Assembly: GCA_014874185.1 (NCBI GenBank) | Contig: JACWAF010000033.1 | Span: 21,234-85,233 of the forward strand | From: Nitrospirota bacterium | GTDB lineage: Bacteria; Nitrospirota; Thermodesulfovibrionia; Thermodesulfovibrionales; JdFR-88 | Direction of reading: 5' to 3' | Length of the DNA: 64,000 bases | Part shown: one piece after another, positions 18,136-50,696 of the stretch | Position numbering within the stretch: position 1 is the stretch's first letter | Layout of the letters: the number at the start of each line of letters is the position of its first letter | The notes under the pieces: generated by a model | Told to the model about the DNA's origin: nothing | Databases searched by the model: none | Seen by the model: only the letters and a program-made list of their open reading frames with translations | Made by a program: the position numbers and the translations under genes

Positions 18136-18215
18136 TCAAAGAGAAAAAACCGGGCCTTCTCAAATTGAAAAGCAGGATTGTTTTGTTTTTAAAATAGCGG
18201 TCTTAGAGGTGTTTG

Positions 18216-18731: not shown

Positions 18732-18732
18732 T

Positions 18733-22329: not shown

Positions 22330-22340
22330 GAGGAGATAAA

Positions 22341-23828: not shown

Positions 23829-23832
23829 AAAT

Positions 23833-24363: not shown

Positions 24364-24367
24364 AGAT

Positions 24368-25589: not shown

Positions 25590-25591
25590 CC

Positions 25592-29594: not shown

Positions 29595-30328
29595 AGGAAA
29601 AAGGCGGCCTTTTCGTCTTTTCAAGCGAGGGCGAACTGGCGGATTTTTTCATCTCCAGATGGCGTGAGAACTCTTCCCGGTCCATCCGGGAAAGAGGTAA
29701 GTTCACCGCGGCGCTATCAGGTGGAAAGAGCCCGGTGGAGATATACTCCAGGCTCTCGCGGGCCGGTGGACTGGACTGGGGGCGCACTTTCATCTTCCAG
29801 GTGGACGAGAGGCTGGTGCCCCGGACCAGCGCGGACAGCAATTTCAATATGATCAAAAGCACCCTTCTGAACAGGATAAGGATACCCGCCGGAAACGTGT
29901 TCCCGGTGCCGGTAGAGGAGAGCACGCCGCAACTTGCGGCGGAAAGGTACGAAGCGGAAATAAAGAGCTTTTTCGGCTTGCGCCCCGGCGAATTCCCCGT
30001 CTTTGACCTCATCTCGCTTGGCATAGGCGAGGACGGGCATACGGCGTCTCTCTTTCCGGGCAGCCCGGCCTTGGATGAAAAGGAGCATATTGTCGCGGCT
30101 GTCCATCCGGGCGGCGGGATGCACGACCGGATCACGCTGACCCTGCCGGTCCTGAACAGGGCAAGAGAGGTCATATTCGCCGTGAAAGGAAAAGAAAAGG
30201 CGCACATATTCAAAAAGGTGGTTGATGGAGACAGGAATTGTCCCGCGGCACTGGTGGTGCCCGATGGAGAACTCCTCTTCGTTGCCGATATGGAAGCGGC
30301 CGCCCTCATCAGCATGGAAAAGGCCTAG
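29579..30328 (+). CDS. pgl: 6-phosphogluconolactonase; start codon uncertain (no ATG; TTG 29579 or CTG 29591)
   Basis: ALSGGKSP and GIGEDGHTASLFPG motifs. Every in-frame ATG upstream lies deep inside zwf, so a non-ATG start overlapping the zwf 3' end is inferred. Confidence 0.85.
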   Translation: MDHKLKEKGGLFVFSSEGELADFFISRWRENSSRSIRERGKFTAALSGGKSPVEIYSRLSRAGGLDWGRTFIFQVDERLVPRTSADSNFNMIKSTLLNRIRIPAGNVFPVPVEESTPQLAAERYEAEIKSFFGLRPGEFPVFDLISLGIGEDGHTASLFPGSPALDEKEHIVAAVHPGGGMHDRITLTLPVLNRAREVIFAVKGKEKAHIFKKVVDGDRNCPAALVVPDGELLFVADMEAAALISMEKA

Positions 30329-30391
30329 CGGCCCGGCGGAGAATTACAACCTGTTTGAGCTTGAGGCCAGGCTGGCCTGAAAGGAGATGTG

Positions 30392-31309
30392 ATGCAACTT
30401 GGGATGATAGGGCTTGGCCGGATGGGCGCTAACATGACGAGGCGGCTGATTCAGGCGGGCCACGAGATAATCGTTTTGGACCGGAACCCGGATAGAGTCC
30501 GGCAGATGGAAAAGGAAGGGGCTGCGGGGGCCTACTCGCACGAGGAGCTTGCAAAAAAACTGAACGCGCCCCGGGCCGTATGGATAATGGTCCCCGCCGG
30601 AGGCCCCGTGGACGAGACAATAGAAAAGCTTAAAGGGCATCTGCGGGAAGGTGACCTGGTCATAGACGGCGGAAACAGCCATTACACGGACGGCCTGAGG
30701 CGGGGCGAAGAGCTTAAAAAATCCGGCATCGGCTTCATGGACGCGGGCGTGAGCGGCGGAATCTGGGGGCTGAAGGAAGGCTACTGCATTATGGCCGGAG
30801 GGGAAAGAGACCAGTACCAGCGGCTTGAGCCCATACTGAAATCGCTTGCGCCGCCCGAAGGCCATCTCTATTGCGGCCCGCTTGGGGCCGGGCATTTCGT
30901 GAAAATGGTCCACAACGGCATAGAGTACGGCATGATGGCCGCATACGGAGAGGGATTTTCGCTGCTTAATGCATCGCGGTATTCCGATTCGCTTGATTTC
31001 GAAAAAATAGCCCACCTATGGAACAGGGGGAGCGTGGTGCGCTCATGGCTGCTGGAGCTTGCCGAGGACGCGTTCAGAAAAGACAAGCGCCTCTCAAATA
31101 TCGAAGGATATGTGGAGGATTCCGGAGAGGGGCGCTGGACCGTCCAGGAGGCAATCAATATGGCGGTGCCCGCTCCTGTAATCGCCCTCTCCTTATTCCA
31201 GAGGTTTGCGTCCAGAGGGCGAGGTGATTTCGCAAGCAGGCTGGAGGCGGCTTTAAGGAGCGAATTCGGAGGGCACGCGATAAAGAAAGAAACGGCTGGA
31301 AAGAAATAA
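30392..31309 (+). CDS. gnd: 6-phosphogluconate dehydrogenase, decarboxylating, short (~300 aa) form
   Basis: AAGGAG then ATG at 30392. MQLGMIGLGRMGANM Rossmann motif. GHFVKMVHNGIEYG motif. Confidence 0.85.
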   Translation: MQLGMIGLGRMGANMTRRLIQAGHEIIVLDRNPDRVRQMEKEGAAGAYSHEELAKKLNAPRAVWIMVPAGGPVDETIEKLKGHLREGDLVIDGGNSHYTDGLRRGEELKKSGIGFMDAGVSGGIWGLKEGYCIMAGGERDQYQRLEPILKSLAPPEGHLYCGPLGAGHFVKMVHNGIEYGMMAAYGEGFSLLNASRYSDSLDFEKIAHLWNRGSVVRSWLLELAEDAFRKDKRLSNIEGYVEDSGEGRWTVQEAINMAVPAPVIALSLFQRFASRGRGDFASRLEAALRSEFGGHAIKKETAGKK

Positions 31310-31436
31310 CTTCTACTTTTCTTTTTTGCAAAAAAGAAAAGTAGCAAAAGAAAAAATTCTTGTATTTTTTTGCCCCATTCGGGGCAAAAAAATCAAAAAG
31401 TTCTCTTTGCTACTTTCTCTAACAAGAGAAAGTAGG
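31310..31436. repeat. Structured AT-rich repeat, family C copy 1 (three hairpins)
   Basis: Hairpins at 31313-31344 (15-bp stem CTACTTTTCTTTTTT/AAAAAAGAAAAGTAG), 31364-31393 (ATTTTTTTGCCCC-ATTC-GGGGCAAAAAAAT) and 31410-31435 (CTACTTTCTCT-AACA-AGAGAAAGTAG). Same modular layout as 51237-51337 and 55674-55760. Confidence 0.6.
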
Positions 31437-31442
31437 GGAATT

Positions 31443-32066
31443 ATGTATTCCATAACGACCCTTTTTCTTGACATAGGCGGCGTGCTCCTTGAGAACGGAT
31501 GGGGCCGTGCAAAGCGGGCCATGGCGGCCCGCGTATTCGGCCTGGACCTGGAGGATTTCAACGAGCGCCATCACCTCACATTCGATACCTACGAGCAGGG
31601 CAAGATAGACCTTGAGACCTACCTGGACCGGGTGGTCTTTTATCAGGAGCGGCCCTTTACAAGAAAGGAATTCAGGGATTTCATGCTGGCCACCCGCCCT
31701 TTCCCCGAGATGATCGAACTGGTGCGTAACCTGAAAAGGGAATACCGCCTTAAGACCGTGGTAGTGAGCAACGAGGGGCGGGAGCTTACGGTTCACAGGA
31801 TACAAAAGTACGGCTTGATTAATTTGATGGACCTGTTCGTGGTCTCCAGTTTTGTCCATATAAGAAAGCCCGACCAGGACCTTTATCAAATGGCCCTGGA
31901 TCTGGCCCAGGCGAGCCCTGAGAACACAGTCTATGTGGAAGACAGGGCCATGTTCGTGGAAGTGGCCCGCAAGATGGGGATAACCGGGGTACACCATACC
32001 GGATATGAAGAGACCAGAAAGGCGCTCGAATCGCTTGGCCTTGCCTTGAAGCGTGAAGCTAAATAA
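31443..32066 (+). CDS. HAD-superfamily hydrolase (subfamily IA-like)
   Basis: ATG at 31443 (MYSITTLFLDIGGVL). Motif I reads D-I-G-G-V, so the second Asp is replaced by Gly. Also VVSNE, K-P, and VYVEDR motif IV. The ORF extension back to 31326 is translation of the repeat. Confidence 0.8.
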   Translation: MYSITTLFLDIGGVLLENGWGRAKRAMAARVFGLDLEDFNERHHLTFDTYEQGKIDLETYLDRVVFYQERPFTRKEFRDFMLATRPFPEMIELVRNLKREYRLKTVVVSNEGRELTVHRIQKYGLINLMDLFVVSSFVHIRKPDQDLYQMALDLAQASPENTVYVEDRAMFVEVARKMGITGVHHTGYEETRKALESLGLALKREAK

Positions 32067-32171
32067 AAAAGTATGCTTATCCGGTTTATTCAGTTGATCA
32101 CATTTTCTTGAGTTCGGGGAATAGCTGTAAAGGGTCTCTAAATAAGGCTCTTCGGGAATCGTGTGGGTAGT

Positions 32172-32196
32172 CCCCCCCCTTTGGAAAAGGGGGGGG
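32172..32196. repeat. Family B-type hairpin (C8-TTTGGAAAA-G8)
   Basis: CCCCCCCCTTTGGAAAAGGGGGGGG followed by ATTTTAAAAA. Resembles the CCCTTTGCCAAAGGG-type hairpins at 1294-1340 and the GGGGGATTTTAAA at 55928-55940. Confidence 0.45.
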
Positions 32197-32325
32197 ATTT
32201 TAAAAATAAATGCTCCACTAAAAAGATTGGCATTCTTGCGGGGGCTTAGAAAAAACATGGCGGACGCCGAAAAGTATCCATGGTCAAGGTTTAAAGAGAA
32301 AATTTGGAATTATTTCATGGTTCGA

Positions 32326-32362
32326 AAAATCTCCCCCTCCCCTCTTTTCCAAAGAGGGGAAT
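32326..32362. repeat. Family B partial copy in inverted orientation
   Basis: AAAATCTCCCCCTCCCCTCTTTTCCAAAGAGGGGAATT is the reverse-complement counterpart of GGAATTTACCCCTCTTTTGCAAAGAGGGGCAGGGGAGATTTT at 1312-1352. Confidence 0.5.
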
Positions 32363-32427
32363 TCCACAGAAAAGTCTGAAGAGCCCGAAATAATAACGAT
32401 ACATCTCTTTGTATGCAAAGGATTCCT

Positions 32428-32550
32428 GTCATTCCGGCTTGTCCGGAATCTACCCACCCCTTAATCCCCTCCTGGGAGGGGACGGAGGTGGGTTGGATTC
32501 CCGGCGCGCGGAGCCTGCCCCGTACTTGATACGGGGCTTGCGGGAATGAC
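32428..32550. repeat. Family A element copy 2 (GTCATTCC...GGAATGAC outer inverted repeat with internal hairpins)
   Basis: GTCATTCCGG-CTTGT-CCGGAATC, CCCCTCC-TG-GGAGGGG, GGATTCCCGG...GCCCCGTA-CTTGA-TACGGGGC...GCGGGAATGAC. Same outer logic as 1074-1160. Confidence 0.55.
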
Positions 32551-32589
32551 ATAATTGGGGGCTTTACTGGGTTTATGAGCTATAAGCAT

Positions 32590-32632
32590 ATAAAAAAATA
32601 AAAAGCCCCGCGCATCCGTCCAGCGCGGGGCC
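32590..32632 (-). terminator. Rho-independent terminator downstream of tal
   Basis: On the minus strand, a GCCCCGCGC-N9-GCGCGGGGC hairpin (32605-32631) is followed by TTTTTATTTTTTTA. It starts about 15 nt after the tal stop. Confidence 0.75.
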
Positions 32633-32646
32633 TTTTGCCTTCACGG

Positions 32647-33804
32647 CTAACGGGATTTCATTATCATGAATGCGTCCCGTTTCTGGGCGATGGCGTCCAG
32701 GACATTGAAGAACGAGTCCGAGAATTTCTTCACGCCGTCTCTTTCAAGCTCGTCCGTGACCTCGTCCATGTCGATGCCAAGGTTTTTCAGGTCTTCCATC
32801 AGCTTTTTTACTTCTTCAAGCCCTTCGCTTATCCTGACCTCAACTCTGCCGTGGTCCTTGAATGCCTGCATGGTCTCTTCGGGCATGGTGTTGATGGAAT
32901 CTGGCGCGATAAGCTCCTCAACATATTTGATATCACTGTAGGCGGGGTTTTTGGTGCTGGTGCTGGCCCATAAAATCCTCTGCACGCGCGCCCCTTTTTC
33001 GGCCAGTTTCCGCCACCTCTCCCCTGCGAAGGTCTGTTTGTATAACCGGTAGGCCATCCTGGCGTTGGCTGCGGCGGCCTTTCCGTACATGTCCTTAATG
33101 GCTTCTTTCTCCGGGATGTCGCCCTCCTCATACAGCCGGTCCAGAAGGCTGTCCACCAGGGTGTCCACCCTGCTTACGAAGAAGCTTGCGACGGAATTTA
33201 TTTCGTTCACCGGCTGCCCCGCACTCGTCCGCCTCTCCAGCCCTTTCATGTACGCGTCCATCACCTCTTCGTAGCGTTTTACTGAGAAGAGCAGGGTCAC
33301 GTTCACGTTGATGCCTTCGCTTATGAGTTCTTCTATGGCGGCGAGGCCTTCCTTCGTCCCCGGCACCTTTACAAAGATGTTCTTCTTGCCCACCATCGAG
33401 GAGAGTTGCCTTGCCTCTCTTATCGTGGCCTCCGTCTCGTATGCCAGGTCCGGCGAGACCTCGATGCTGACAAACCCGTCCACTCCCCTGGTCTGCTCGT
33501 GCACGGGCCACATGATGTCAGCCGCCAGGTGGACGTCCGCCGTGGTGAGCCCTAAATATAATTCCTTGGGATTGGAGACGTTTTTTGCGAGCAGGTCATG
33601 CAGGCCGTTGTCGTATTCCTTGCCGCGCTCTATGGCCTTCTGAAAGATGGTGGGGTTTGAGGTTATGCCCTTCAGCCCGTCCTCCTTTATAAGGCGGTTC
33701 AGCTCGCCGGAGTTTATGAGGTTTCTGCTCAGGTTATCCAGCCAGACGCTCTGGCCTGCCCTGCCAAGCTGTATTAAAGGGCTTTCTCCCGTTATCGCGC
33801 TCAT
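32647..33804 (-). CDS. tal: Transaldolase (long, ~380 aa type)
   Basis: GQSVWLDNLSR, ITSNPTIF, FVSIEVSP, NIFVKVPGT and SFFVSRVD motifs. Confidence 0.9.
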   Translation of the reverse strand: MSAITGESPLIQLGRAGQSVWLDNLSRNLINSGELNRLIKEDGLKGITSNPTIFQKAIERGKEYDNGLHDLLAKNVSNPKELYLGLTTADVHLAADIMWPVHEQTRGVDGFVSIEVSPDLAYETEATIREARQLSSMVGKKNIFVKVPGTKEGLAAIEELISEGINVNVTLLFSVKRYEEVMDAYMKGLERRTSAGQPVNEINSVASFFVSRVDTLVDSLLDRLYEEGDIPEKEAIKDMYGKAAAANARMAYRLYKQTFAGERWRKLAEKGARVQRILWASTSTKNPAYSDIKYVEELIAPDSINTMPEETMQAFKDHGRVEVRISEGLEEVKKLMEDLKNLGIDMDEVTDELERDGVKKFSDSFFNVLDAIAQKRDAFMIMKSR

Positions 33805-33817
33805 ATCGCCTCCTTTT

Positions 33818-35917
33818 CTAATGCAGGGCCCCGGCCTTTTTGCCCAGTATGGCCTTTGCCGTCTCTATTATATGCTCCGCGGTAAAGCCGAATTCCCGCA
33901 TATTGGTCTTCCCCGGTGCGGAGGCTCCGAAGTGGTCCAGGCCTATCACCGCACCCTCGCCCATGTATTTTGGCCCGGCGTACTTGTACCAGTCCTGGGT
34001 TGCGGCCGCCTCTACGGCTATCCTCTCGCCCACTTCGGGCGGCAGCACCTTGTTCCTGTACTCCTCCGGCTGGCTGTCGAAGAACTCCTGGCAGGGCATG
34101 CTCACCAGCCGCGCGCTGATCCCCTCGGACCTGAGCGTTTCGTAAGCTTGCAGGCAGATATGCACCTCGGAGCCGGTCGCGATGATTATAATATCGGGCT
34201 TTTCGGTCTCGTCTCCCGCCAGGACGTAAGCGCCTTTATGAAGGCCGCTGGCTGCGGCGTATTTTTTCCTGTCTATGGTCGGAAGGTTCTGCCTGGACAA
34301 TATAAGAGAGACCGGGCCTTCCTTGTGCATGAGGGCCGCCTTCCATGCCTCGGCGGTCTCGTTGGCGTCGGCGGGTCTTATCACGGTCATGTTGGGAATG
34401 GCCCGGAGGCTTGGTATATGCTCAACCGGCTGATGGGTAGGGCCGTCTTCGCCCAGGGCCACGGAGTCGTGCGTGAAGACGTATATAAGCCTCAGTCCGC
34501 CAAGCGCGGCAAGCCTTATCGCGGGCCTCATGTAGTCGGAGAAGATGAGGAATGTGGCCCCGTATGGGAGGAAGCCTCCGTGCATGGCAAGCCCGCTTAT
34601 TATGCCTCCCATTGCGTGTTCCCTCACGCCGAAATTGAGATTTGCCCCGCCGTACCACCACTTGCCCTCGGAGCCCTGTATCTCTTCGCCGCCCTCTTGC
34701 GGCGGCTCGAATGTGCCCCCGTCCTTGAGGGCCGTCTTTGTGGAGGGGTTCAGGTCTCCGGAGCCGCCAATCAGAAAAGGCAGGTCGTTTGCTATGGCGT
34801 TCATCACTTTGCCGCCTGCCGAGCGTGTGGCGATCCCCTTCTCATCAGGCCCGAACGAGGGGACCTTCTGCTGCCAGTCAGGTGGGAACTCCAGTTTCAT
34901 CATCCGGTCCCATTCCCGCCTCATGTCGGGATAGGCTTTGGCGTATTCGCTTAGTTTATTGTCCCAGCCGGATTCCAGTTTGGCCCCTCGATCTCCGGAC
35001 TGCCTGAAGAAAGAGAGCACTTCGTCCGGGACATAAAAGGGCGGCTCGGTGGGCCAGCCCAGGTTCTCTTTCGCCTTTCTTGTGTCTTCCGGGCCAAGCG
35101 GGCTTCCGTGGGCCTCAAAGCTGTCCTGCTTCGGACTGCCGTAGCCTATATGGGTGCGCACCTCTATGAGCGAAGGGCGGCCGGTCTCTTCGCGGGCTTT
35201 TTTTATTGCCTCTTCGATTGCGGCGAGGTCGTTGCCGTCCTCTACGTATTGATAATGCCAGCCGTAGGCCTCGAACCTCTTGCCAACGTTTTCGGTCATG
35301 ACAAGAGAGGTCGCGGCAGAAAGGGTTATGTGGTTGGAGTCATAAAGATAGACCACTTTTCCAAGTTTCAGATGCCCGGCCAGGGAGGCGGCCTCCGAGG
35401 CGACGCCTTCCATTATATCGCCGTCGCTCACTATGGAATAAGTATAATGGTCCATAATTTCGTGCCCCGTGCGGTTGAACCGGGCGGCGAGGAACGCCTC
35501 GCCCATGGCCATGCCGATTGCGTTTGCAAACCCCTGTCCCAGGGGGCCTGTGGTGCACTCCACGCCAGGGGTCCGGCGGTATTCGGGGTGCCCAGGGGTC
35601 TTGCTCCCCCATTGCCTGAACTGCTTTATATCGTCCAGCGAGAGGTCATAGCCGGAAAGATATAAGAGCGAATAGAGGAGGGCGGAGCCATGCCCAGCTG
35701 AAAGGACAAAGCGGTCCCTGTCCGCCCAGTATGGGTCTTTCGGGTTGAACTTCAGGAATTTAGTCCAGAGGACATAAGCCATAGGGGCCGCGCCCATCGG
35801 CATCCCCGGGTGACCGGAATTCGCCTTCTCAATCATGTCCACGGATAAGAACCTGATAGCGTTTATGCATCGGGTGTCAAAATCCACGAAGGACCTCCAG
35901 GATGTGAATTCGGTCAT
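33818..35917 (-). CDS. tkt: Transketolase
   Basis: 699 aa. [12 protein letters not shown]...[42 protein letters not shown] motifs. Confidence 0.95.
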
Positions 35918-36125
35918 ATTGGCCGGAGAAAAAAGATAAAATCATATTTCCTCTATTCAAGAACTATCAGGAAAACCATGTATTGTCAAGGAAATGCGGT
36001 TCCGCGGTGATGGATTAATCCAGGACAGGCGGTCATTACCCGGGCTGGACACAACCCGTCCTATGAATCCATAATAGAGGAGCTTCCTTTTCCGGAAGAA
36101 ATTGGCAACGGGGGTAGATGGAGAG

Positions 36126-36515
36126 ATGCCGGGCAGGGCCAGGATACTGGTCATGGATGATGAAGAGATAGTAAGGCTTACGCTGGCCAGCATGCTTGAG
36201 GGGCTTGGCTATGAGGCGGAACTGGCCGAAGACGGTTTGCAGGCGGTCGGCCTGTATAAAAGGGCACTGGAAGAGAAAAGGCCGTTTGACGCGGTCATTA
36301 TGGACCTTACCGTAAAAGGGGGGATGGGTGGCAGGGACGCCATAAAAAGTCTTCTGGAACTGGACCCGCAGGTTAAGGCGATAATCTCCAGCGGCTATTC
36401 CGAGGACGCCATGACAGCCGGCTACAGGTCACTGGGCTTCAGAAAATGCATTTTGAAGCCCTACAGCATTGAAGAGCTGAGGGCCGGGCTGGTTGAGCTT
36501 TTAAACCAGGATTAA
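36126..36515 (+). CDS. Stand-alone response regulator receiver domain (CheY-like)
   Basis: ILVMDDEE, phospho-acceptor context DAVIMDLTV, SSGYS, KP. No output domain and no adjacent histidine kinase. Its TAA stop shares the palindrome TTAA with the convergent helicase stop. Confidence 0.85.
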   Translation: MPGRARILVMDDEEIVRLTLASMLEGLGYEAELAEDGLQAVGLYKRALEEKRPFDAVIMDLTVKGGMGGRDAIKSLLELDPQVKAIISSGYSEDAMTAGYRSLGFRKCILKPYSIEELRAGLVELLNQD

Positions 36516-38764
36516 CCCTTTCGGGAAATCCTTTCTCCGGCCTCAAGCAGCATCCCGGCCAGCCGCATTGCCCCTGCCTTGTGCAAGGGCCTGTTCGCGT
36601 TGCCGCACTGGGGGTCCTGCACGCAGGATGGGCAGCCCTCTTCACACGGGCACTCGGTCATGATGGCAAGCGATGCGCCGAGCCATTTCGAAAGCAACTC
36701 ATAGGGCTTCCATGTAAGCCCTATGCCGCCCTCCACGCCGTCATAGAAGAAGATGGCGCTCCCCCCGAAAGACGGATAGAAAGGATAGCTTATCCCGCCT
36801 ATGTCCATCTTGTCGCACATGGAAAAGAGCGGCATGGCCGATATGGCGGCGTGCTCGAAGGCATGCAATGAGCCGCCAAGGTCTGTCTGCTCAAGCTCCT
36901 TTACGATTCCATCCGCCAGCCTCATCCAGACCCCTTTCGTGCTGAAGACGTATTCGGGCAGTTCCAAGGGGTGCACGGAATATCTTTTGCCGTCATGGAG
37001 GCCCCTCTTCTCAAACCCGGTTACCCTGAAGCGAAGTCTGATGCTGCCTTTATGCAGGCTGAAGCCCTTAAAGTTTTCATGCGCGTTTTCATCGATTATC
37101 TCAGCGTTCTGCTCGGACAGGGCCCTTGTAAAATATTCAGCCCCGGTCTCCTCGCAAAAGACCTTCCTGTCCGCATAATCGATCTCCCGCACCCTGTACT
37201 GCCTTCCCCTGTGCAGGTAGATGGCGCCTGGGAAGGCCTCCTTTAAAAGCCTCAGCCCGCCGGTCTCCCCTATCTTCGCGCCCTTTGCGATTATTGAACA
37301 GGCCTCGCCTATGGCCCTTATCCCGGCGTCCCTGTGGGGTGTCCTTCCGGTGGAGAACCAGGTGCCGGGAATCCTCCCCGGGTTCAGTTTCCCTTCTCTT
37401 GCAAGCTCTTCAATGACCGGGTATATTATTTTCCGATCGTAGACCGGGTCGTCCTCTTTAAGGAAGACCTCTTTTGCGGCGCACGGGAGGTGCGCCTTCA
37501 GGATGGCCTCGTTGTCCTGGTCTGTTACGGCCGACTCGCTTGGTTTTCCGAAGAACTCTTCCGGGTGCCTGATGATGTACTGGTCCAGTGCATCGTTCAG
37601 CCCTATGAGCGCAACGATGCTCTCCTGCCCCTGCCTGCCCACCCGCCCGGCCCTCTGCCATGTGCTCGAGACCGAGCCCGGATAGCCTATCAATATGCAG
37701 ACGTCCAGGCCGCCGATGTCAACGCCCAGTTCCAGGGCCGAGGTGGAGACCACGCCAAGGAGTTCTCCATTGAATAGAGCCTGCTCTATCTCCCGCCTTT
37801 CAGAGGGCAGGAACCCCGCCCGATAGGGGCTTACAAGCCCGGCAAGATGCGGGGACTTGGCCAGCGCCCAGGAATAGACAAGCTCGGTTATCTTCCTGGA
37901 TTTGGTAAAAACGATCGTCCTCAGTCCCCGGTCAAGGCAATAGGTGAACAGGTTTACCCCCATCGTGTAAGGGCTTTCGTACTGCGGACTTATGAACAGG
38001 AAATGCTTTCCTCCGGAAGGGGCCCCGCTCCGCTCGACCAGATCGAAGGGAAGCCCTGTCAGGTTTCGGGCCAACTCCGCTGGGTTGGCGATAGTGGCGG
38101 AGCATGTTATGAACTGAGGATTCGCGCCCCATCTCAGGGCTATGCGCCTCAGCCTTCGTATGACCTGTGCCACGTTTGAGCCGAATACCCCCCTGTAGGC
38201 GTGGATCTCATCGAGCACTACAAATTTCAGGTTTCTGAAGAACGCCTCCCACTTTGGGTGGAACGCGTTTATAGCCAGGTGCAGCATGTCAGGGTTGGTG
38301 AATATCACATCCGGCAGATTTTCCCTGATCTTCTTTCTTCTGTACGGGGTGGTGTCGCCGTCGTAGACGGCCCCGCCGGAAAGCCCGAGCGGGCCGGCCA
38401 GCGAATTCAAAGCGCCAAGCTGGTCCTGCTCCAGCCCCTTCATGGGCGAGATATAGAGGGCCTTCGAGCCGGGCGCTTTCAGAAGCATCTCCAGTATGGG
38501 GATATTGTAAATTAGGCTTTTGCCGCTTGCCGTGGGGGTCATCACGACCAGATTGCGGCCCGCCCTTATCAGCCGCAGGGCCTCCGCCTGATGAGAGAAG
38601 AGGCGCTCAATCCCGTTTTCCCTCAGCAGCCTTGAAAGCTCCGGGACGAGTTCGATTTCGGCCCATTCGGCCGGTTTTGGCGGAATGTATTTTTCAAAGG
38701 AAAGCTCGCCCTCCCGAAGGACCCCGCCTTTCAGCCCGGCGAGAAGTTCTTCTGTTTTTTTCAC
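36512..38764 (-). CDS. DEAD/DEAH-box helicase with C-terminal DUF1998 zinc domain (MrfA/YprA family)
   Basis: Walker A TPTASGKS, DEIH box VVLDEIHAYRG, QRAGRVGRQG motif VI, C-terminal C.CEEGCPSCV..PQCGN. The start is set at GTG 38764, a GTGA overlap with the upstream subunit IV stop. The longer ORF to 38977 would overlap that gene by 217 nt. Confidence 0.85.
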   Translation of the reverse strand: MKKTEELLAGLKGGVLREGELSFEKYIPPKPAEWAEIELVPELSRLLRENGIERLFSHQAEALRLIRAGRNLVVMTPTASGKSLIYNIPILEMLLKAPGSKALYISPMKGLEQDQLGALNSLAGPLGLSGGAVYDGDTTPYRRKKIRENLPDVIFTNPDMLHLAINAFHPKWEAFFRNLKFVVLDEIHAYRGVFGSNVAQVIRRLRRIALRWGANPQFITCSATIANPAELARNLTGLPFDLVERSGAPSGGKHFLFISPQYESPYTMGVNLFTYCLDRGLRTIVFTKSRKITELVYSWALAKSPHLAGLVSPYRAGFLPSERREIEQALFNGELLGVVSTSALELGVDIGGLDVCILIGYPGSVSSTWQRAGRVGRQGQESIVALIGLNDALDQYIIRHPEEFFGKPSESAVTDQDNEAILKAHLPCAAKEVFLKEDDPVYDRKIIYPVIEELAREGKLNPGRIPGTWFSTGRTPHRDAGIRAIGEACSIIAKGAKIGETGGLRLLKEAFPGAIYLHRGRQYRVREIDYADRKVFCEETGAEYFTRALSEQNAEIIDENAHENFKGFSLHKGSIRLRFRVTGFEKRGLHDGKRYSVHPLELPEYVFSTKGVWMRLADGIVKELEQTDLGGSLHAFEHAAISAMPLFSMCDKMDIGGISYPFYPSFGGSAIFFYDGVEGGIGLTWKPYELLSKWLGASLAIMTECPCEEGCPSCVQDPQCGNANRPLHKAGAMRLAGMLLEAGERISRKG

Positions 38765-39135
38765 AGGTTGAAGACGGAGAGTATGCTGAGGGTTACCGCG
38801 CTTGCAAGCAGAAAGAGGCCGGCCACCACCGCGATCTTCCTTCCCCTTCCATCCTTGTCCATATACGGTATGAAGACCAGCAGCGAGATGAACACAAGGG
38901 GCATTATAACCGTTCCGAAGAAGGTCCATCGGCCGGGAAAATACCTCAGGAGCTGATAGAGCCAGAGGAAGTACCATTCCGGCTTCGGCGTGAAGCGCGA
39001 GACGAAATCTATCGCCTGCCCGGCCCGCGGCGGAAAAAGGAGCGCCACGGCCAGAAGCAGCTCGAAGGCTATAAAGGCGCTTGCAGCCACATAGGGCAGG
39101 TATTCCGGGTACAGCCGCATTTTCTTTTTTGCCAT
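38761..39135 (-). CDS. Cytochrome b6f subunit IV-like protein (cytochrome b C-terminal domain), bc-complex copy 2
   Basis: 124 aa with three TM helices and a canonical Qo motif, TPKPEWYFLWLYQ. Confidence 0.85.
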   Translation of the reverse strand: MAKKKMRLYPEYLPYVAASAFIAFELLLAVALLFPPRAGQAIDFVSRFTPKPEWYFLWLYQLLRYFPGRWTFFGTVIMPLVFISLLVFIPYMDKDGRGRKIAVVAGLFLLASAVTLSILSVFNL

Positions 39136-39136
39136 A

Positions 39137-39787
39137 TCAGAGCCCCCCTGAAATCCCCTGCCTCTTCACCATATGAAAGTGCGCCCATAGCACCATGAAC
39201 ATGAAAACGGGTATCCAGAGGACGTGCAGGCTGTAAAACCTTATGAGCGTTGCACCCTGCACCTCGGCACCGCCACGGAGAAGCATGACTACAAACGGCC
39301 CGATGCCGGGCACTGTGCCGCCCATCGATGTGCCAACCACCGTGGCCCAGTATGCCTTCTGGTCCCACGGGAGCAGATATCCGGTAAATCCGGAGGCAAG
39401 CACCAGGACAAGGGTAAGCGAGCCGGCTATCCAGTTAAGCTCTCTTGGCGGCCTGTACGCCTTGTAAACGAAAACCCGGACAGTATGGAAGACGATGAAG
39501 ATTATCAGGATGGTTGCGGACCATTTATGCAGGCTTCTTATCAGCCAGCCCCCCCAGACGGCGTTGTTTATCTCAAGCACGCTCTTGTAGGCGTCCGTGG
39601 CGGAGGGCACATAATAGACCGAAAGCATCAGCCCGGTGACAACGGAGGTCATGAAGCAGACAAAAGCCATCCCGCCGAAGCAGTAGGAAAAGTTCAGCTT
39701 TACGGGGACCGACCTGGAGAGGAACCCCTTGTGAGGCTCCCTCAGCCTGAAGAGCCTGTCCAGTACGCGTACGATGAGGTCTATCAA
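39137..39787 (-). CDS. Cytochrome b6-like protein (cytochrome b N-terminal domain), bc-complex copy 2
   Basis: 216 aa. H-x13-H (HKWSATILIIFIVFH) and H-x14-H (HVLWIPVFMFMVLWAH). NFSYCFGG matches the FYCLGG Cys that binds heme ci in b6-type cytochromes. Confidence 0.9.
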   Translation of the reverse strand: MIDLIVRVLDRLFRLREPHKGFLSRSVPVKLNFSYCFGGMAFVCFMTSVVTGLMLSVYYVPSATDAYKSVLEINNAVWGGWLIRSLHKWSATILIIFIVFHTVRVFVYKAYRPPRELNWIAGSLTLVLVLASGFTGYLLPWDQKAYWATVVGTSMGGTVPGIGPFVVMLLRGGAEVQGATLIRFYSLHVLWIPVFMFMVLWAHFHMVKRQGISGGL

Positions 39788-40248
39788 GTCCTCACCCCGA
39801 TGTAGAAATCCCCGTTCACTATCTTATAGGGCAGGCGTGTAAGGGGCCTGGGGGCGGGGCCGCCGATTACCTTGCCCGTTATATCGAAAGCGCTCCCGTG
39901 GCAGGGGCAGTCGAATTCGTTCTTGAAGGGGTTCCAGCGCACCTGGCAGCCAAGATGGGTGCATGTGGGCGAGAGGGCGATAATCTTCCCGTTCGCGTTT
40001 GAGAGGTAGACCCTGAAGCTCTGGTCACGGAAGGTGAAATCCACTTTCTTGACCCCTCTGCGCGGGAGGGAGTACTCATCGAATACCCTGACGAACTCTA
40101 ACGCGCCTTCTTTTCCCGTGCTGAAAGGATAGAAATAAGGCAGGCCGGCAAGCCCTCCGAGTCCCAAAACCGCCAGAGAGGCCTTTACGAGAGCGGAAAG
40201 GAAATCCCTTCTGCCTTCATGGCCTTTATTCCTCTGTGTCCTCAACAT
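39784..40248 (-). CDS. Rieske [2Fe-2S] protein with Tat-like signal, bc-complex copy 2
   Basis: GRRDFLSALVKASLAV, CTHLGC...CPCHGS. 4-nt overlap with the b6-like gene. The start overlaps the ihfB 3' end by 23 nt. Confidence 0.9.
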   Translation of the reverse strand: MLRTQRNKGHEGRRDFLSALVKASLAVLGLGGLAGLPYFYPFSTGKEGALEFVRVFDEYSLPRRGVKKVDFTFRDQSFRVYLSNANGKIIALSPTCTHLGCQVRWNPFKNEFDCPCHGSAFDITGKVIGGPAPRPLTRLPYKIVNGDFYIGVRT

Positions 40249-40525
40249 CTATGTTCAGGGCCTCTTTAAGGGCCTTGCCCATTTTGAAGTGCAGGGCTAC
40301 TTTTCTGGGCACTTCAACGCTCTCGCCGGTCTTGGGGTTTCTGGCCTTGCGGGGCTTTCTCTCCCTGAGCCTGAAATTGCCGAACCCGCGGATCTCGATC
40401 TTTTCCCCTTTGGCCAGGGATTCCCGCATGCTGTCGAAGACGGTGTCTATTATCATCTCGGTCTGCTTAACCGTCAGTCCTTCCACCTTCTGAGCCACCT
40501 TCTCGATAAGGCCGGACTTCGTCAT
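40226..40525 (-). CDS. ihfB: Integration host factor beta subunit (HU/IHF family)
   Basis: 99 aa. MTKS.LIE..., GEKIEIRGFGNF, ARNPKTGE. Lies downstream of rpsA, as in many proteobacterial-type operons. Confidence 0.8.
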   Translation of the reverse strand: MTKSGLIEKVAQKVEGLTVKQTEMIIDTVFDSMRESLAKGEKIEIRGFGNFRLRERKPRKARNPKTGESVEVPRKVALHFKMGKALKEALNIDVEDTEE

Positions 40526-40537
40526 ATAAAATCCCTC

Positions 40538-41386
40538 CTATGGAGAAAAGAAGTATTTGAACCTTATTGCGGGAGAGGTGTCGGGCAGCGCGGTCTTGAC
40601 CTCCTGCCTCAGAAGATCGAATATCCCGCCTTTCTTTTTCTTGGTGACCAGGGTTGGCTCTCCTTTTATGCCCGCAAGCTTCTGGGCCAGCTTTATCGCG
40701 TCGTTCAGGTCCCCGAGCTGGTCAACAAGCCCGATCTCCATGGCCTGCCTTCCCGAGAAGATCCTGCCGTCCGCTATGGCCCTGACCTTTTCAACCGGCA
40801 GTTTCCTGCCCTCGGCCACGGCCGCTATGAACTGCTCGTGAACGTCGTCAAGGACCCCTTGCAGGATAGCGCGCTCCTCCGGGCTGATCTCCTTGAACAT
40901 GGAGGCTATGTCCTTGTTCTTGCCGCTCTTTATGACTTGCGCCTTTACCCCGATCTTGTCCATCAGGCCCTTTATGTTGGGTATCTCCATGATCACGCCG
41001 ATTGAGCCGGTGATGCTGCCCGGATTGGCAACGATCCTGGTCGCGGGGGCGGAGATATAATAGCCGCCGGAGGCCGCCATCGAGCCTACCGAGACGACTA
41101 TTATCTTTTTGGCCACGGCCTTCACCATCTCTTCATGGATCTCCTGCGAGGGGGCCACTCCCCCTCCGGGGCTGTCCACCCTTACCACTATGGCCTTTAT
41201 GGAAGGGTCCTTGACGTAATCCCGAAGGGTGTCTATCGTCTCGCGGGAGCTGTTGATGGTGCCCTCGATCCTGAGGACGGCGATCTTCTCTCCGCCGGGC
41301 AGCCTGTTTGACAAAAGCGCAATTATGGCGCTTATTACCAAGATCGACAGCAGGATGACAGCCAGCACAAAGCAGACCTTTTTCAT
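40538..41386 (-). CDS. sppA: Signal peptide peptidase SppA (36K type)
   Basis: N-terminal TM helix, VDSPGGGV, SMAASGGYYISAPA (catalytic Ser context), GSIGV. Confidence 0.85.
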   Translation of the reverse strand: MKKVCFVLAVILLSILVISAIIALLSNRLPGGEKIAVLRIEGTINSSRETIDTLRDYVKDPSIKAIVVRVDSPGGGVAPSQEIHEEMVKAVAKKIIVVSVGSMAASGGYYISAPATRIVANPGSITGSIGVIMEIPNIKGLMDKIGVKAQVIKSGKNKDIASMFKEISPEERAILQGVLDDVHEQFIAAVAEGRKLPVEKVRAIADGRIFSGRQAMEIGLVDQLGDLNDAIKLAQKLAGIKGEPTLVTKKKKGGIFDLLRQEVKTALPDTSPAIRFKYFFSP

Positions 41387-42958
41387 CTAGGAGCCGGCTG
41401 CCGCCTTCACGTTCTTCATGCTTAGCCCTATCTTCCGGTTATCGAGGTCTATCTTTATTATTCTGGCCCAAAGCTCTTCGCCTTCCTGCACGGGCTCTTC
41501 CCGCCTCAGCGCCTCGGAGGCATAGATAAGCCCTTCCACTTCGCCGGGCATCTCCACGAATATCCCGAAATCGGTCTGCCTCAGCGCACGGCATTTTACC
41601 TCGTCTCCCAGGTGGAAGGTGCGGGGTATCTCTTCTATCCAGGGGTCTTCCTTCAGCTGCTTGAGCCCGAGGGCTATCCTCTCTTTTTCCGGCTCCACGC
41701 TGAGCACTACCGCGTCTACCTTCTGCCCTTTTTTGAGGACCTCGGAAGGGTGCTTTATGTGTCTTGTCCAGGAGATATCGGATATATGGATCAGGCCGTC
41801 AACACCCTCGGGAAGCCCCACGAAGGCCCCGAACTCGGTCACGCTCTTCACCTTGCCCGATATCGTCATGCCCGGCTTGTAGTTTTCCGACACCATCTGC
41901 CACGGGGAGAGCTTCAACTGCTTCATGCTCAGTGACAGCCGTCTCTCGTCCCTGTCCGCCTTGAGGACGAGCGCCTCCACCTCGTCGCCCACCGAGACGT
42001 ATTTGGAGGGGTGCTTGGGTTTGGGGGCCCAGTCCATCTCGGAGACGTGCACAAGCCCTTCAAGTCCTTCTTCCACCTTGACGAATGCGCCGTAATCGGT
42101 GATGCTCACGACCTTGCCGCTGACCTTCATCCCGGCCGGGTATTTCTGGTCCACATTGCTCCACGGGTCGGGCATCTTCTGCTTGTATCCCAGGGTGACC
42201 TTCTCGGTAGCCGGATCGTACTTGAGGACCAGCACCTCCACTTCCTGGCCCACGGAGAGCATCTCGGAGGGATGTGATATCCTGCCCCAGGACATGTCCG
42301 AGATATGGAGGAGGCCGTCTATCCCGCCCAGGTCTATGAAGGCGCCATAGTCCGTGATGTTCTTGACCGCGCCTTTCATTATCGCGCCCTCGTGCAGGAA
42401 CTGGAGCGTCTCGGATTTTTTCTTCTGCCGTTCCTCATCCACGTAGCTCTTCCTGGAGACCACGAGGGTGGTGCGTTTATTGTTCACTTTAAGTATCTTG
42501 AATGTGAGCTTTTTGCCGAGGAGCGCCTCCAGCTCATTGGCCTTGGCCCCTATATGCGAGCCGGGCAGGAAGGCCTTTACGCCGTAGATGTCAACGAAGA
42601 GGCCGCCTTTGGTCTTCGAAAGAATAGTGCCCTCCACGGGCTCTTCCTTTCCCATCGCCTCTTCGATCTGCTCCCAGGCCTTCATCCTGACGGCCTTGCG
42701 CCTGGAGAGCACGACCATTCCCTCGGCATCGGATATGTGCTGGACATAGACTTCGAGGACATCGCCAAGCTTAAGTTCGGCCAGTTCCTCTTCGGTGAAT
42801 TCCTCCCGGGGCACGAATCCCTCGGATTTGTATCCGACATCGACCACGACCCCGGTTTCCTTTACTGAGATGACCCTGCCATTGATCAGCGTGCCGGCTT
42901 CAATCTCATGGAAAGACTCCTCGTAAAGCCTTTCTAGTTCGTTTTCGTTCATTTCCAT
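41387..42958 (-). CDS. rpsA: 30S ribosomal protein S1
   Basis: 523 aa with repeated S1 domains (G.V..I...GAFV.L..G..GL.H.S). Confidence 0.93.
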   Translation of the reverse strand: MEMNENELERLYEESFHEIEAGTLINGRVISVKETGVVVDVGYKSEGFVPREEFTEEELAELKLGDVLEVYVQHISDAEGMVVLSRRKAVRMKAWEQIEEAMGKEEPVEGTILSKTKGGLFVDIYGVKAFLPGSHIGAKANELEALLGKKLTFKILKVNNKRTTLVVSRKSYVDEERQKKKSETLQFLHEGAIMKGAVKNITDYGAFIDLGGIDGLLHISDMSWGRISHPSEMLSVGQEVEVLVLKYDPATEKVTLGYKQKMPDPWSNVDQKYPAGMKVSGKVVSITDYGAFVKVEEGLEGLVHVSEMDWAPKPKHPSKYVSVGDEVEALVLKADRDERRLSLSMKQLKLSPWQMVSENYKPGMTISGKVKSVTEFGAFVGLPEGVDGLIHISDISWTRHIKHPSEVLKKGQKVDAVVLSVEPEKERIALGLKQLKEDPWIEEIPRTFHLGDEVKCRALRQTDFGIFVEMPGEVEGLIYASEALRREEPVQEGEELWARIIKIDLDNRKIGLSMKNVKAAAGS

Positions 42959-50588: not shown

Positions 50589-50696
50589 AATGGCCTTTTA
50601 CCGGTAAAGCTTAGAATAATATTTTTTTCCTTGTTTTTTCAAGGATTATGCCCCTGAATTTGTAATGGCGGGAGCACTGAATGTATAATTCCGGTT

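What the first reader, a model, noticed from the sequence alone, without database searches (positions are those of the whole stretch)
38761..40248. Second, different bc-type complex (Rieske / split b6 / subunit IV) with no c-type partner, embedded in a housekeeping operon
This paralogous set is split like b6f. It has a Tat-signal Rieske protein, a 216-aa b6-like protein with the YCFGG heme-ci Cys, and a 124-aa subunit IV-like protein with canonical PEWYF. No cytochrome f, c1 or diheme c gene is adjacent.

It sits at the distal end of a continuous minus-strand array: pheA-hisC-aroF-tyrA-aroA-cmk-plsC-ispH-rpsA-sppA-ihfB. The Rieske start overlaps the ihfB 3' end by 23 nt.

The window therefore holds two mechanistically distinct quinol:acceptor complexes. 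One is fused, lacks the ci Cys and has PEWN. The other is split, has the ci Cys and has PEWY. The electron acceptor of this second one is not evident.
Basis: partly seen in the sequence, partly recalled or inferred. Interest (0 to 1): 0.55.

Follow-up and report, generated by a model that had tools for sequence, protein, structure and literature searches.

The report
Core-only b6-type Rieske/cytochrome b complex
The three genes are a real, intact quinol-oxidising Rieske/cytochrome b6/subunit IV complex that is typical of its bacterial lineage (Thermodesulfovibrionia, phylum Nitrospirota). Its apparently missing cytochrome c partner is probably a large eight-heme cytochrome that relatives encode either next to these genes or far away in the genome.

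Summary
Three tightly packed minus-strand genes encode a Tat-signal Rieske protein (39784-40248), a 216-aa cytochrome b6 with the heme-ci Cys (39137-39787) and a 124-aa PEWY subunit IV (38761-39135). No heme-c motif lies in any real reading frame nearby.

One correction: the set is not the end of the array. An MrfA-like DEAH helicase gene starts at GTG 38764 and overlaps the subunit IV stop codon.

The set is not a recent copy of the window's other bc set. The two cytochromes b share 35% identity. The other set follows narGHJI and carries a fused diheme c.

The block pheA…rpsA-sppA-ihfB-Rieske-b6-SUIV is conserved in 17 related Nitrospirota loci, none with an adjacent cytochrome c.

In sister lineages the same complex sits beside a ~640-aa membrane-anchored octaheme cytochrome c. 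This was seen in 34 of 80 metagenome loci, in three gene orders. Two genomes with the ihfB-linked operon carry that octaheme gene about 0.2 and 1.1 Mb away. The partner is therefore most likely encoded elsewhere, but this could not be checked for the window's own genome.

Verdict: a new member of a known kind, of moderate-low interest. The octaheme link is the only fresh lead.

The parts
39784..40248 (-). Rieske 2Fe-2S subunit (154 aa). It has a Tat motif (GRRDFL), one N-terminal TM anchor, and the cluster boxes CTHLGC and CPCHGSAF.
   Evidence: PF00355 E=1.2e-13. Best PDB sequence hits are b6f PetC, E=3e-18. TM helix at residues 16-37. Aligned with 26 orthologues.
39137..39787 (-). Cytochrome b6-type subunit (216 aa, TTG start overlapping the Rieske TGA as TTGA). 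It has four TM helices, heme ligands H87/H101 and H188/H203, and the heme-ci Cys36 in YCFGG.
   Evidence: PF00033 E=2.3e-48. PDB b6 hits at E=5e-55, full length. C36, G38, G39 and the four His are invariant in 66 clade members. Gene junction read.
38761..39135 (-). Subunit IV-like C-terminal cytochrome b piece (124 aa, three TM helices, Qo motif PEWY). Its ATG lies 1 nt after the b6 stop.
   Evidence: PF00032 E=2.2e-7. PDB hits to b6f subunit IV and to the C-terminal half of mitochondrial cytochrome b. PEWY is conserved in 20 orthologues. TM helices.
40226..40525 (-). ihfB (integration host factor beta-like, 99 aa). Its last 23 nt overlap the Rieske start. It is the last housekeeping gene before the complex.
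   Evidence: PF00216 E=5e-32; NCBIfam IHF-beta E=4e-32, 110.2 bits against a cut-off of 115. Adjacent to the Rieske gene in 17 related loci.
36512..38764 (-). MrfA/Hrq1-like DEAH-box helicase (750 aa from GTG 38764). Its start overlaps the subunit IV stop by 4 nt, so it continues the array. This linkage is specific to the window's lineage and is not conserved in relatives.
   Evidence: DEAD, Helicase_C and MZB domains. TIGR03817 E=1e-199 from the GTG start. Junction sequence. Same gene start on Logan contig L002. Relatives have other genes downstream.

Best explanation
The three genes encode the catalytic core of a b6-type ('green clade') Rieske/cytochrome b complex. This complex is the lineage-typical quinol-oxidising complex of Thermodesulfovibrionia (Nitrospirota).

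Shown:
- All redox-cofactor ligands and the Qo motif are intact and conserved across the clade.
- The genes are translationally coupled to each other and to ihfB.
- The block pheA…ihfB-Rieske-b6-SUIV is conserved in relatives.

Inferred mechanism:
- (Mena)quinol is oxidised at the Qo site, which is formed by b6, subunit IV (PEWY) and the Tat-exported Rieske head.
- One electron passes through the two b hemes and heme ci to the Qi site (Q cycle).
- The other electron leaves through the Rieske cluster to a periplasmic c-type cytochrome that is not encoded in the operon.

The most likely partner is the orthologue of a ~640-aa octaheme cytochrome c with an N-terminal membrane anchor. In sister lineages this gene lies directly beside the same Rieske/b6/SUIV genes. 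In genomes with the ihfB-linked arrangement it is an orphan gene elsewhere on the chromosome.

Embedding in a housekeeping array suggests constitutive co-expression. The Nar-linked second complex in the window is a separate module, presumably used for particular respiratory conditions.
For: - Domain and ligand evidence.
- Gene junctions: 23-nt overlap, 4-nt overlap, 1-nt gap, 4-nt overlap.
- Closest homologues are Nitrospirota/Thermodesulfovibrionales proteins at 60-75% identity.
- The synteny ispH-rpsA-sppA-ihfB-Rieske-b6-SUIV is present in 14 species-level genomes. The full pheA…SUIV array is present in L086/L088, and L003 holds it from aroF onward at the limit of its flank. None of these loci has a multi-heme (two or more CxxCH) ORF beside the three genes. 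Scattered single-CxxCH ORFs and one six-heme ORF about 2.4 kb downstream in L014 were not examined.
- Orthologous octaheme genes (50-80% identical to each other, 8 invariant CxxCH, N-terminal TM helix) abut Rieske/b6 in L009, L012, L015, L021 and L092, and lie 3 kb away in L019 and L020.
- In a metagenome scan seeded with the octaheme, 34 of 80 loci carry Rieske+b6 in the flank. The figure is 15 of the 28 loci with at least 5 kb on both sides. Three different gene orders occur.
- At least 13 octaheme hits share contig-length fingerprints with b6 hits.
- In GCA_009176125.1 the ihfB-linked operon is at 0.69 Mb and the octaheme at 1.80 Mb. On contig k141_1068857 they are about 200 kb apart. In both cases no second Rieske/b6 lies near the octaheme.
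- In a neighbour-joining tree, b6 genes from ihfB-linked and octaheme-linked loci interleave within one Nitrospirota clade. This fits one orthologous complex in different genomic arrangements.
Against: - The octaheme gene is not in the 64-kb window.
- Gene adjacency in relatives is indirect evidence. No biochemical data exist for this complex or for the octaheme family, which has no sequence or fold relative in the PDB.
- About half of the octaheme loci lack Rieske/b6 nearby, so the octaheme could have other partners.
- The tree is neighbour-joining without support values.
- This Rieske protein has an atypical box II (CPCHGSAF) where the aligned orthologues mostly have CPCHGG.Y (four have A, S or K in place of a glycine). 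This could mean a shifted potential and a different acceptor in this organism.
Confidence: 0.55

Rival explanations
1. This is a genuinely cytochrome-c-less three-subunit complex. The Rieske head reduces diffusible or separately anchored periplasmic carriers directly, as in green sulfur bacteria, and no dedicated c subunit exists. Candidate carriers include small cytochromes, the ExtKL selenocysteine pentaheme cytochrome encoded 11.4 kb upstream, HiPIP, or a periplasmic reductase.
For: - No c-type gene is adjacent in 17 ihfB-linked loci.
- There is precedent. The haloarchaeal Rieske/cytb-Nar cluster has no cytochrome c gene (PMC3509893). In Chlorobaculum a separately encoded cytochrome c-556 serves the complex (PMC10172866 abstract).
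- An ExtKL orthologue scores above its family cut-off in the window (574.9 vs 250 bits). In Geobacter, ExtKL is clustered with a Rieske/cytochrome b pair, ExtO/ExtP (PMC5877670).
Against: - ExtKL homologues sit in unrelated, variable contexts with no Rieske/b6 or pheA nearby.
- An apparent shared contig between ExtKL and the octaheme was a coincidence of contig length.
- The repeated, rearranged adjacency of the octaheme gene to this same complex in sister lineages is more specific than anything found for other carriers.
Confidence: 0.3
2. The set works mainly in a sulfur-compound pathway, linking the quinone pool to periplasmic thiosulfate, polysulfide or tetrathionate chemistry. It may run in either direction, rather than acting as a general respiratory complex III.
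For: - In the 40 loci where the octaheme and Rieske/b6 are linked, nearby genes often include YeeE/YedE sulfur transporters (17), Psr-like molybdopterin oxidoreductase subunit A (11) and subunits B and C (8 each), and rhodanese (8).
- In Thermodesulfovibrio the set lies between psrABC and YeeE-DsrEFH-octaheme-rhodanese.
Against: None of these genes is near the set in the window or in any ihfB-linked locus. The association is by neighbourhood only, and no enzyme activity is known for the octaheme. This rival concerns physiological role and is compatible with the best explanation's mechanism.
Confidence: 0.1
3. The set is a decaying or non-functional paralogue, or a recent duplicate of the Nar-linked bc set.
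For: It lacks a c-type subunit gene. Its scores fall below the NCBIfam equivalog cut-offs for b6f subunits.
Against: - All ORFs are intact, and all heme and FeS ligands, the CxGG motif and PEWY are conserved in up to 66 relatives.
- The synteny is conserved.
- The two cytochromes b share only 35% identity. The Rieske paralogues differ at almost every synonymous site, even within an identical 14-aa stretch.
Confidence: 0.03

Closest known systems
Cytochrome b6f complex (PetB/PetD/PetC/PetA) of cyanobacteria and chloroplasts
   Same: - Split cytochrome b: a 4-TM b6 of 215-216 aa plus a 3-TM subunit IV.
- The same heme-ligand spacing (13 and 14 residues), the heme ci/cn Cys in a CxGG motif, and PEWY.
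- A Tat-type Rieske protein with CTHLGC/CPCHGS boxes.
- Best PDB sequence matches, at E=5e-55 for b6.
   Different: - No cytochrome f gene, and no PetG/L/M/N genes seen.
- All three subunits score far below the NCBIfam b6f cut-offs: 221.9 vs 325, 75 vs 250, and 22 vs 127 bits.
- Subunit IV is 36 residues shorter.
- The host is a non-photosynthetic member of the mostly anaerobic class Thermodesulfovibrionia, presumably using menaquinone (my inference from general knowledge of the class).
Green sulfur bacterial (Chlorobi) Rieske/cytochrome b complex, whose operon lacks a cytochrome c1/f gene
   Same: The operon encodes only the quinol-oxidising core. The c-type acceptor is encoded elsewhere: cytochrome c-556 CT0073 in Chlorobaculum (PMC10172866 abstract). 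The Qo motif is PEWY despite a low-potential quinone (PMC4122944).
   Different: Chlorobi have a long, unsplit cytochrome b (PMC5600118, subfamily J). Here the cytochrome b is split. The proposed partner here is an octaheme, not a monoheme, and there is no reaction centre.
Geobacter ExtO/ExtP/ExtQ (Rieske / cytochrome b / membrane protein) within the extHIJKLMNOPQS cluster
   Same: - The best-scoring NCBIfam model for this b6 is ExtP (230.4 bits).
- It is a split b6-like complex in an anaerobe, associated with multiheme cytochromes rather than c1 or f.
- An ExtKL selenocysteine pentaheme orthologue is present in the window.
- The octaheme shows weak similarity to ExtN (E=5e-8).
- Rhodanese and porin genes appear next to some relatives' operons, as ExtH and ExtI do in Geobacter (PMC5877670).
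   Different: - The ExtP score is below the 290-bit cut-off.
- The b6 of the one Geobacter locus fetched (L057, not shown to be the ext cluster) is about 43% identical.
- No ExtM, ExtN or ExtS genes are adjacent.
- ExtKL is not consistently linked to the complex.
Firmicute menaquinol:cytochrome c reductase QcrABC (b6c) and the heliobacterial bc complex
   Same: Split cytochrome b with a heme-ci Cys, and a menaquinol substrate. They belong to the same broad 'green clade' (PMC3509893, PMC5600118).
   Different: In those complexes the c-type heme domain is fused to subunit IV or encoded in the operon. This was seen in loci L038, L044, L048, L073 and L074, where the subunit IV ORF carries a CxxCH. 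Here subunit IV has no heme-c motif. Firmicutes mostly have PDWY (PMC4122944).
Multiple Rieske/cytb complexes in one genome, including cytochrome b fused to class I cytochrome c and the Rieske/cytb-Nar cluster
   Same: The window's other set (Rieske at 25044-25589; cytochrome b plus diheme c ending at 27583; directly after narGHJI) matches the published cytochrome b-cytochrome c fusion clades and the Nar-linked arrangement (PMC4122944, PMC3509893). Co-existence of two distant sets in one organism is the published pattern.
   Different: The finding itself concerns the other, unfused set. The published trees include Thermodesulfovibrio yellowstonii, but the papers I could read do not discuss the ihfB linkage or an octaheme partner.

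Membership tests
b6-type ('green clade') Rieske/cytochrome b complexes | Rieske protein with both 2Fe-2S ligand boxes (CxHxGC and CxCH) and a Tat-type N-terminal anchor | tested here: met
   CTHLGC and CPCHGS boxes, GRRDFL motif, TM helix at residues 16-37
b6-type ('green clade') Rieske/cytochrome b complexes | Split cytochrome b: a four-helix N-terminal protein with two His pairs spaced 13 and 14 residues apart | tested here: met
   H87/H101 and H188/H203, invariant in 66 relatives. Full-length alignment to solved b6 structures
b6-type ('green clade') Rieske/cytochrome b complexes | CxGG motif in helix A (covalent heme ci/cn) | tested here: met
   Y-C36-F-G-G. C36, G38 and G39 are invariant in 66 relatives. 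Heme attachment itself is not testable here.
b6-type ('green clade') Rieske/cytochrome b complexes | Separate three-helix subunit IV carrying the Qo motif | tested here: met
   124 aa, three TM helices, PEWY conserved
b6-type ('green clade') Rieske/cytochrome b complexes | A c-type cytochrome subunit encoded with the core (cytochrome f, mono/diheme c, or a subunit IV-c fusion) | tested here: not met
   No CxxCH in any real frame between 36400 and 41500. None of the 17 ihfB-linked relatives has a multi-heme ORF beside the three genes; scattered single-CxxCH ORFs were not examined. This feature varies across the clade; it is absent, for example, from Chlorobi operons.
Cyanobacterial/chloroplast cytochrome b6f (NCBIfam equivalogs PetB, PetC, PetD) | Scores above the curated cut-offs for PRK03735 (b6), NF045928 (PetC) and TIGR01156 (subunit IV) | tested here: not met
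   221.9 vs 325, 75.1 vs 250, and 22.3 vs 127 bits
Geobacter Ext selenite/tellurite cluster (ExtP cytochrome b equivalog) | ExtP model score above cut-off, with neighbouring extMNOQS genes | tested here: not met
   230.4 vs 290 bits. No ExtM, ExtN or ExtS genes are adjacent. Only ExtKL is present, 11.4 kb upstream.
Thermodesulfovibrionia ihfB-linked Rieske/b6/SUIV block (defined here) | Gene order sppA-ihfB-Rieske-b6-SUIV, with b6 at least 55% identical to clade members | tested here: met

The most novel reading that the evidence does not exclude
Thermodesulfovibrionia, including magnetotactic Nitrospirota, may use a so far undescribed 'Rieske/b6-octaheme c' complex. Its c-type subunit would be a ~640-aa membrane-anchored octaheme protein with no sequence or fold relative among solved structures. 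In roughly half of the lineages, the window's among them, the core genes would have been separated from the octaheme gene and attached to the rpsA-sppA-ihfB housekeeping array. The complex could be the main link between the quinone pool and periplasmic sulfur chemistry or other multiheme electron-transfer chemistry in these anaerobes.
Probability: 0.4. Interest if true: 0.55.

Novelty: new member of a known kind. Interest (0 to 1): 0.33.

Why it matters
The role of Rieske/cytochrome b complexes in strict or facultative anaerobes with low-potential quinones is poorly understood, and the electron exit route is the main unknown.

This locus shows three things about Thermodesulfovibrionia:
- The core is conserved.
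- It is probably expressed constitutively, because it is translationally coupled to ihfB at the end of a housekeeping array.
- It is genomically associated, in sister lineages, with one specific uncharacterised octaheme cytochrome.

That gives a concrete, testable candidate for the missing subunit. It also gives an example of a respiratory complex whose subunit genes have been split between a housekeeping operon and an orphan locus.

For the window itself, the practical value is correct annotation. The organism has two old, non-redundant bc-type modules: one Nar-linked with a fused diheme c, and one lineage-typical core.

Tried and rejected
1. Missed c-type ORF. All six frames of 36400-41500 were scanned for CxxCH, CxxxCH, CxxxxCH and CxxCK. 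Only out-of-frame chance hits were found.
2. Recent duplication or gene conversion between the two Rieske genes. They share an identical 14-aa stretch (ITGKVIGGPAPRPL), but the codons differ at nearly every third position and DNA identity is 60%. Rejected.
3. ExtKL as the linked partner.
   - ExtKL homologues are stand-alone genes in variable contexts.
   - A shared contig length (9014 bp) with an octaheme hit proved coincidental: tblastn found no ExtKL on L092.
4. Finding the octaheme in the window's own genome.
   - It is not in the 64-kb window.
   - Exact look-ups returned only short Logan contigs and no accessions.
5. Characterising the octaheme.
   - No PDB sequence hit.
   - A confident AlphaFold model (pLDDT 83.4, pTM 0.80) gave no Foldseek PDB match better than E=0.33.
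   - Only weak similarity to NrfH and ExtN.
6. SECIS-like hairpin after the ExtKL TGA. The fold was no more stable than shuffled sequence (z=0.86). This is uninformative.
7. Literature. No paper in the searchable library discusses this complex in Thermodesulfovibrionia or magnetotactic Nitrospirota. The ten Brink 2013 paper on multiple Rieske/cytb complexes is not held.
8. Promoter and terminator scan. No convincing terminator lies between sppA and the helicase gene. The matches are weak consensus hits.

Full report
**Observation**

The region 38761-40248 holds three consecutive minus-strand ORFs exactly as described.

- The 154-aa product of 39784-40248 is a Rieske protein (PF00355, E=1.2e-13).
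  - Its closest solved relatives are b6f PetC subunits (E=3e-18).
  - It has a GRRDFL twin-arginine motif, a single hydrophobic anchor (residues 16-37) and the cluster boxes CTHLGC and CPCHGS.
- The 216-aa product of 39137-39787 is a cytochrome b6-type protein (PF00033, E=2.3e-48).
  - It aligns over its whole length with Chlamydomonas, spinach and cyanobacterial b6 (E=5e-55 to 3e-51).
  - YCFGG aligns with the heme-cn motif YC[IL]GG.
  - The His pairs H87/H101 and H188/H203 have the b6 spacing of 13 and 14 residues.
- The 124-aa product of 38761-39135 matches the C-terminal cytochrome b/PetD family (PF00032, E=2.2e-7). It has three predicted helices and PEWY.

No heme-c-binding motif lies in any genuine reading frame between 36400 and 41500.

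The upstream genes are pheA, hisC, aroF, tyrA, aroA, cmk, plsC, ispH, rpsA, sppA and ihfB. All were verified by Pfam/NCBIfam.

**Gene junctions**

- The Rieske ATG lies 23 nt inside ihfB.
- The b6 TTG overlaps the Rieske TGA (TTGA).
- The subunit IV ATG follows the b6 stop after 1 nt.

A GTG at 38764 overlaps the subunit IV TGA (GTGA) and opens a 750-aa MrfA/Hrq1-like DEAH helicase gene (36512-38764).

- From that start the protein still gives E=1e-199 to TIGR03817.
- An independent gene call on an identical Logan contig uses the same start.

The bc-type set is therefore internal to the array, not its distal end. No convincing terminator separates sppA, ihfB, the three genes and the helicase gene. 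Co-transcription is inferred, not shown.

**Relation to the other set in the window**

The first set lies at 25044-27583, directly after narGHJI (18673-25072). These follow a membrane-anchored monoheme cytochrome and a nuo operon.

- Its cytochrome b is unsplit, lacks the ci Cys, has PEWN and carries two class I cytochrome c domains.
- This is the published 'cytochrome b-cytochrome c fusion' type (PMC4122944) in a Nar-linked arrangement (PMC3509893).
- The two cytochromes b share 35% identity. The Rieske domains share 50%.
- An identical 14-residue stretch in the two Rieske proteins is encoded with synonymous differences at almost every codon. There has been no recent duplication or gene conversion.

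**Who else has it**

The closest b6 homologues are 60-75% identical and come from Nitrospirota/Thermodesulfovibrionales MAGs.

- A scan of species-representative genomes and BLAST-based context mapping found the order ispH-rpsA-sppA-ihfB-Rieske-b6-SUIV in 14 Nitrospirota genomes. These include magnetotactic Nitrospirota and a Dissulfurispiraceae MAG.
- Three further contigs show the array: the whole of it from pheA in L086 and L088, and from aroF onward in L003, at the limit of its flank.
- The genes downstream of subunit IV vary (ABC transporter, permease, ffh, or the helicase here).
- None of these 17 loci has a multi-heme (two or more CxxCH) ORF beside the three genes. A few single-CxxCH ORFs, and a six-heme ORF about 2.4 kb downstream in L014, were not examined.
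- Across 66 clade members the ci Cys, the two Gly of CxGG and all four heme-ligand His are invariant. The Tat motif, the Rieske boxes and PEWY are conserved.

This is a functional, lineage-typical complex.

**The missing partner**

Within the same b6 clade, other genomes carry a ~640-aa ORF with eight CxxCH motifs and an N-terminal hydrophobic anchor.

- It lies immediately upstream of the Rieske gene in L009, L012 and L021.
- It lies immediately downstream of b6 in L015 and L092, where subunit IV has moved to the front.
- It lies about 3 kb away in Thermodesulfovibrio (L019, L020).
- These proteins are mutually orthologous at 50-80% identity, with all eight heme motifs invariant.

A protein search with this octaheme found 455 homologues.

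- Two of those contigs belong to genomes with the ihfB-linked arrangement. In GCA_009176125.1 the operon is at 0.69 Mb and the octaheme at 1.80 Mb. On contig k141_1068857 they are about 200 kb apart.
- Neither octaheme locus has another Rieske/b6 nearby.

A metagenome scan seeded with the octaheme alignment returned 80 loci.

- 34 of them carry Rieske+b6 in the flank.
- The figure is 15 of the 28 loci with at least 5 kb of flank on both sides.
- Three gene orders occur.

In a neighbour-joining tree, b6 genes from ihfB-linked and octaheme-linked loci interleave within one Nitrospirota clade (no support values).

The simplest reading is one orthologous complex whose c-type subunit gene is adjacent in some lineages and unlinked in others. 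This is inference from neighbourhood. I could not test whether the window's own genome has the octaheme.

The octaheme family is uncharacterised.

- It has no PDB sequence hit.
- It shows only weak similarity to NrfH and ExtN.
- A confident AlphaFold model (pLDDT 83, pTM 0.80) has no Foldseek match in the PDB better than E=0.33.

**Mechanism**

Established knowledge of b6f/bc complexes and the intact cofactor sites support the following model.

- Quinol is oxidised at Qo (b6, PEWY subunit IV and the Rieske head).
- The electrons bifurcate to the b hemes and heme ci on one side and to the Rieske cluster on the other (Q cycle).
- Electrons exit from the Rieske cluster to a periplasmic c-type acceptor.

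The cofactor ligands are shown by sequence. The quinone species, the direction of electron flow and the acceptor are inferred.

Context in relatives hints at sulfur chemistry. Among the 40 linked loci, YeeE occurs in 17, Psr-like subunit A in 11, and Psr-like subunits B and C and rhodanese in 8 each. In Thermodesulfovibrio the set lies between psrABC and DsrEFH-octaheme-rhodanese. None of these genes is near the ihfB-linked sets, so the physiological acceptor in this organism remains open.

**A local peculiarity**

The window's Rieske protein has box II CPCHGSAF (Ser/Phe), and so does the Nar-linked paralogue (CPCHGSVF). The aligned orthologues mostly have CPCHGG.Y (Gly/Tyr), including the closest ones; four have Ala, Ser or Lys in place of one of the glycines. 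By the published sequence rule, SF corresponds to about +200-230 mV and GY to about +120-160 mV (PMC3509893, figure legend read). This organism's Rieske clusters may therefore be tuned upward, perhaps to a different quinone or acceptor. This is a prediction only.

**Comparison with known systems**

- Structurally it is closest to b6f, but it fails every b6f equivalog cut-off and lacks cytochrome f.
- In lacking a c gene in the operon it resembles the Chlorobi complex, which however has an unsplit cytochrome b (PMC5600118).
- Its best NCBIfam match is Geobacter ExtP (230 vs 290 bits). The window also encodes an ExtKL selenocysteine pentaheme. In Geobacter, ExtKL is clustered with the Rieske/cytochrome b pair ExtO/ExtP (PMC5877670). 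ExtKL is not consistently linked to this complex elsewhere.
- Published phylogenies already include the Thermodesulfovibrio yellowstonii complex and document several Rieske/cytb complexes per genome (PMC3509893, PMC4122944).

**Verdict**

The finding is real and correctly described apart from the 'distal end' claim. It is a new member of a known kind rather than a new system. The useful new points are the class-wide embedding in a housekeeping array and the candidate octaheme partner.

Interest is 0.33. If the octaheme pairing proves true it would define an undescribed variant of bc complex (probability about 0.4, interest about 0.55).

Noticed in passing
window 51338-52639 (-), in-frame TGA at 51716-51718: This is a multiheme cytochrome c selenoprotein of the ExtKL family. 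The 307-aa ORF ends at a TGA (…GHGIPDG-TGA-PTPNR…) and continues in frame for 126 more codons. With read-through, the NCBIfam ExtKL score rises from 425.8 to 574.9 bits and covers profile positions 11-422 of 423. Database homologues are all truncated at about 305-315 aa, which suggests systematic mis-annotation at the selenocysteine codon.
   Followed up: yes
window 3611-27583 (+): A large respiratory island: a nuo operon (nuoA at 3611, nuoI at 11914, up to about 18092), a membrane-anchored monoheme cytochrome c (18213-18731), cytoplasmic-type narGHJI (NarG has no Tat motif; likely start MGWIQD about 18733; through 25072), then a Rieske gene (25044-25589) and a cytochrome b fused to two class I cytochrome c domains (to 27583).
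   Followed up: partly
window 39784-40248 (-) and 25044-25589 (+): Both Rieske proteins of this organism have Ser/Phe in box II (CPCHGS.F). The aligned orthologues of the housekeeping-linked one mostly have CPCHGG.Y (four carry Ala, Ser or Lys in place of a glycine). By the published sequence rule this predicts a cluster potential higher by roughly 60-100 mV. It could reflect a different quinone pool or acceptor in this lineage.
   Followed up: partly
window 36512-38764 (-), with 36102-36515 (+): An MrfA/Hrq1-like DEAH helicase gene (DEAD, Helicase_C and MZB zinc-binding domains) is translationally coupled to the subunit IV gene by a GTGA overlap. Its 3' end overlaps a convergent single-domain response-regulator gene by 4 nt. 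This linkage is not seen in relatives.
   Followed up: partly
L009:3378-5315, L015:6587-8611, L019:9650-11542(-), L021:966-2900, L092:6848-8782; orphan copies at L089:8001-9929 and L090:3442-5262: A conserved ~640-aa octaheme cytochrome c family with an N-terminal membrane anchor, a C-terminal beta-rich domain and a helical tail. It is widespread in Nitrospirota (including Ca. Magnetomonas, Magnetominusculus and Magnetoovum) and some Desulfobacterota MAGs. It has no sequence or fold relative in the PDB.
   Followed up: yes
L019:1669-12206 (similar in L020 and L023): In Thermodesulfovibrio the Rieske/b6/SUIV genes are flanked on one side by a divergent Psr-like molybdopterin oxidoreductase (Tat-signal A subunit, 4Fe-4S B subunit, NrfD-type C subunit). 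On the other side lie YeeE, DsrE/DsrE/DsrH, the octaheme and a rhodanese. This is a sulfur-metabolism neighbourhood.
   Followed up: partly
window 27553-35917: A pentose-phosphate gene cluster lies between the two respiratory regions: rpiB, zwf, pgl, gnd-like and a HAD hydrolase on the + strand, and transaldolase and transketolase on the - strand.
   Followed up: no
window 50646-51083 (-) and 12-1022 (+): ORFs of 145 aa and 336 aa have no Pfam or NCBIfam match. The 145-aa ORF lies between ExtKL and pheA at the head of the long minus-strand array.
   Followed up: no
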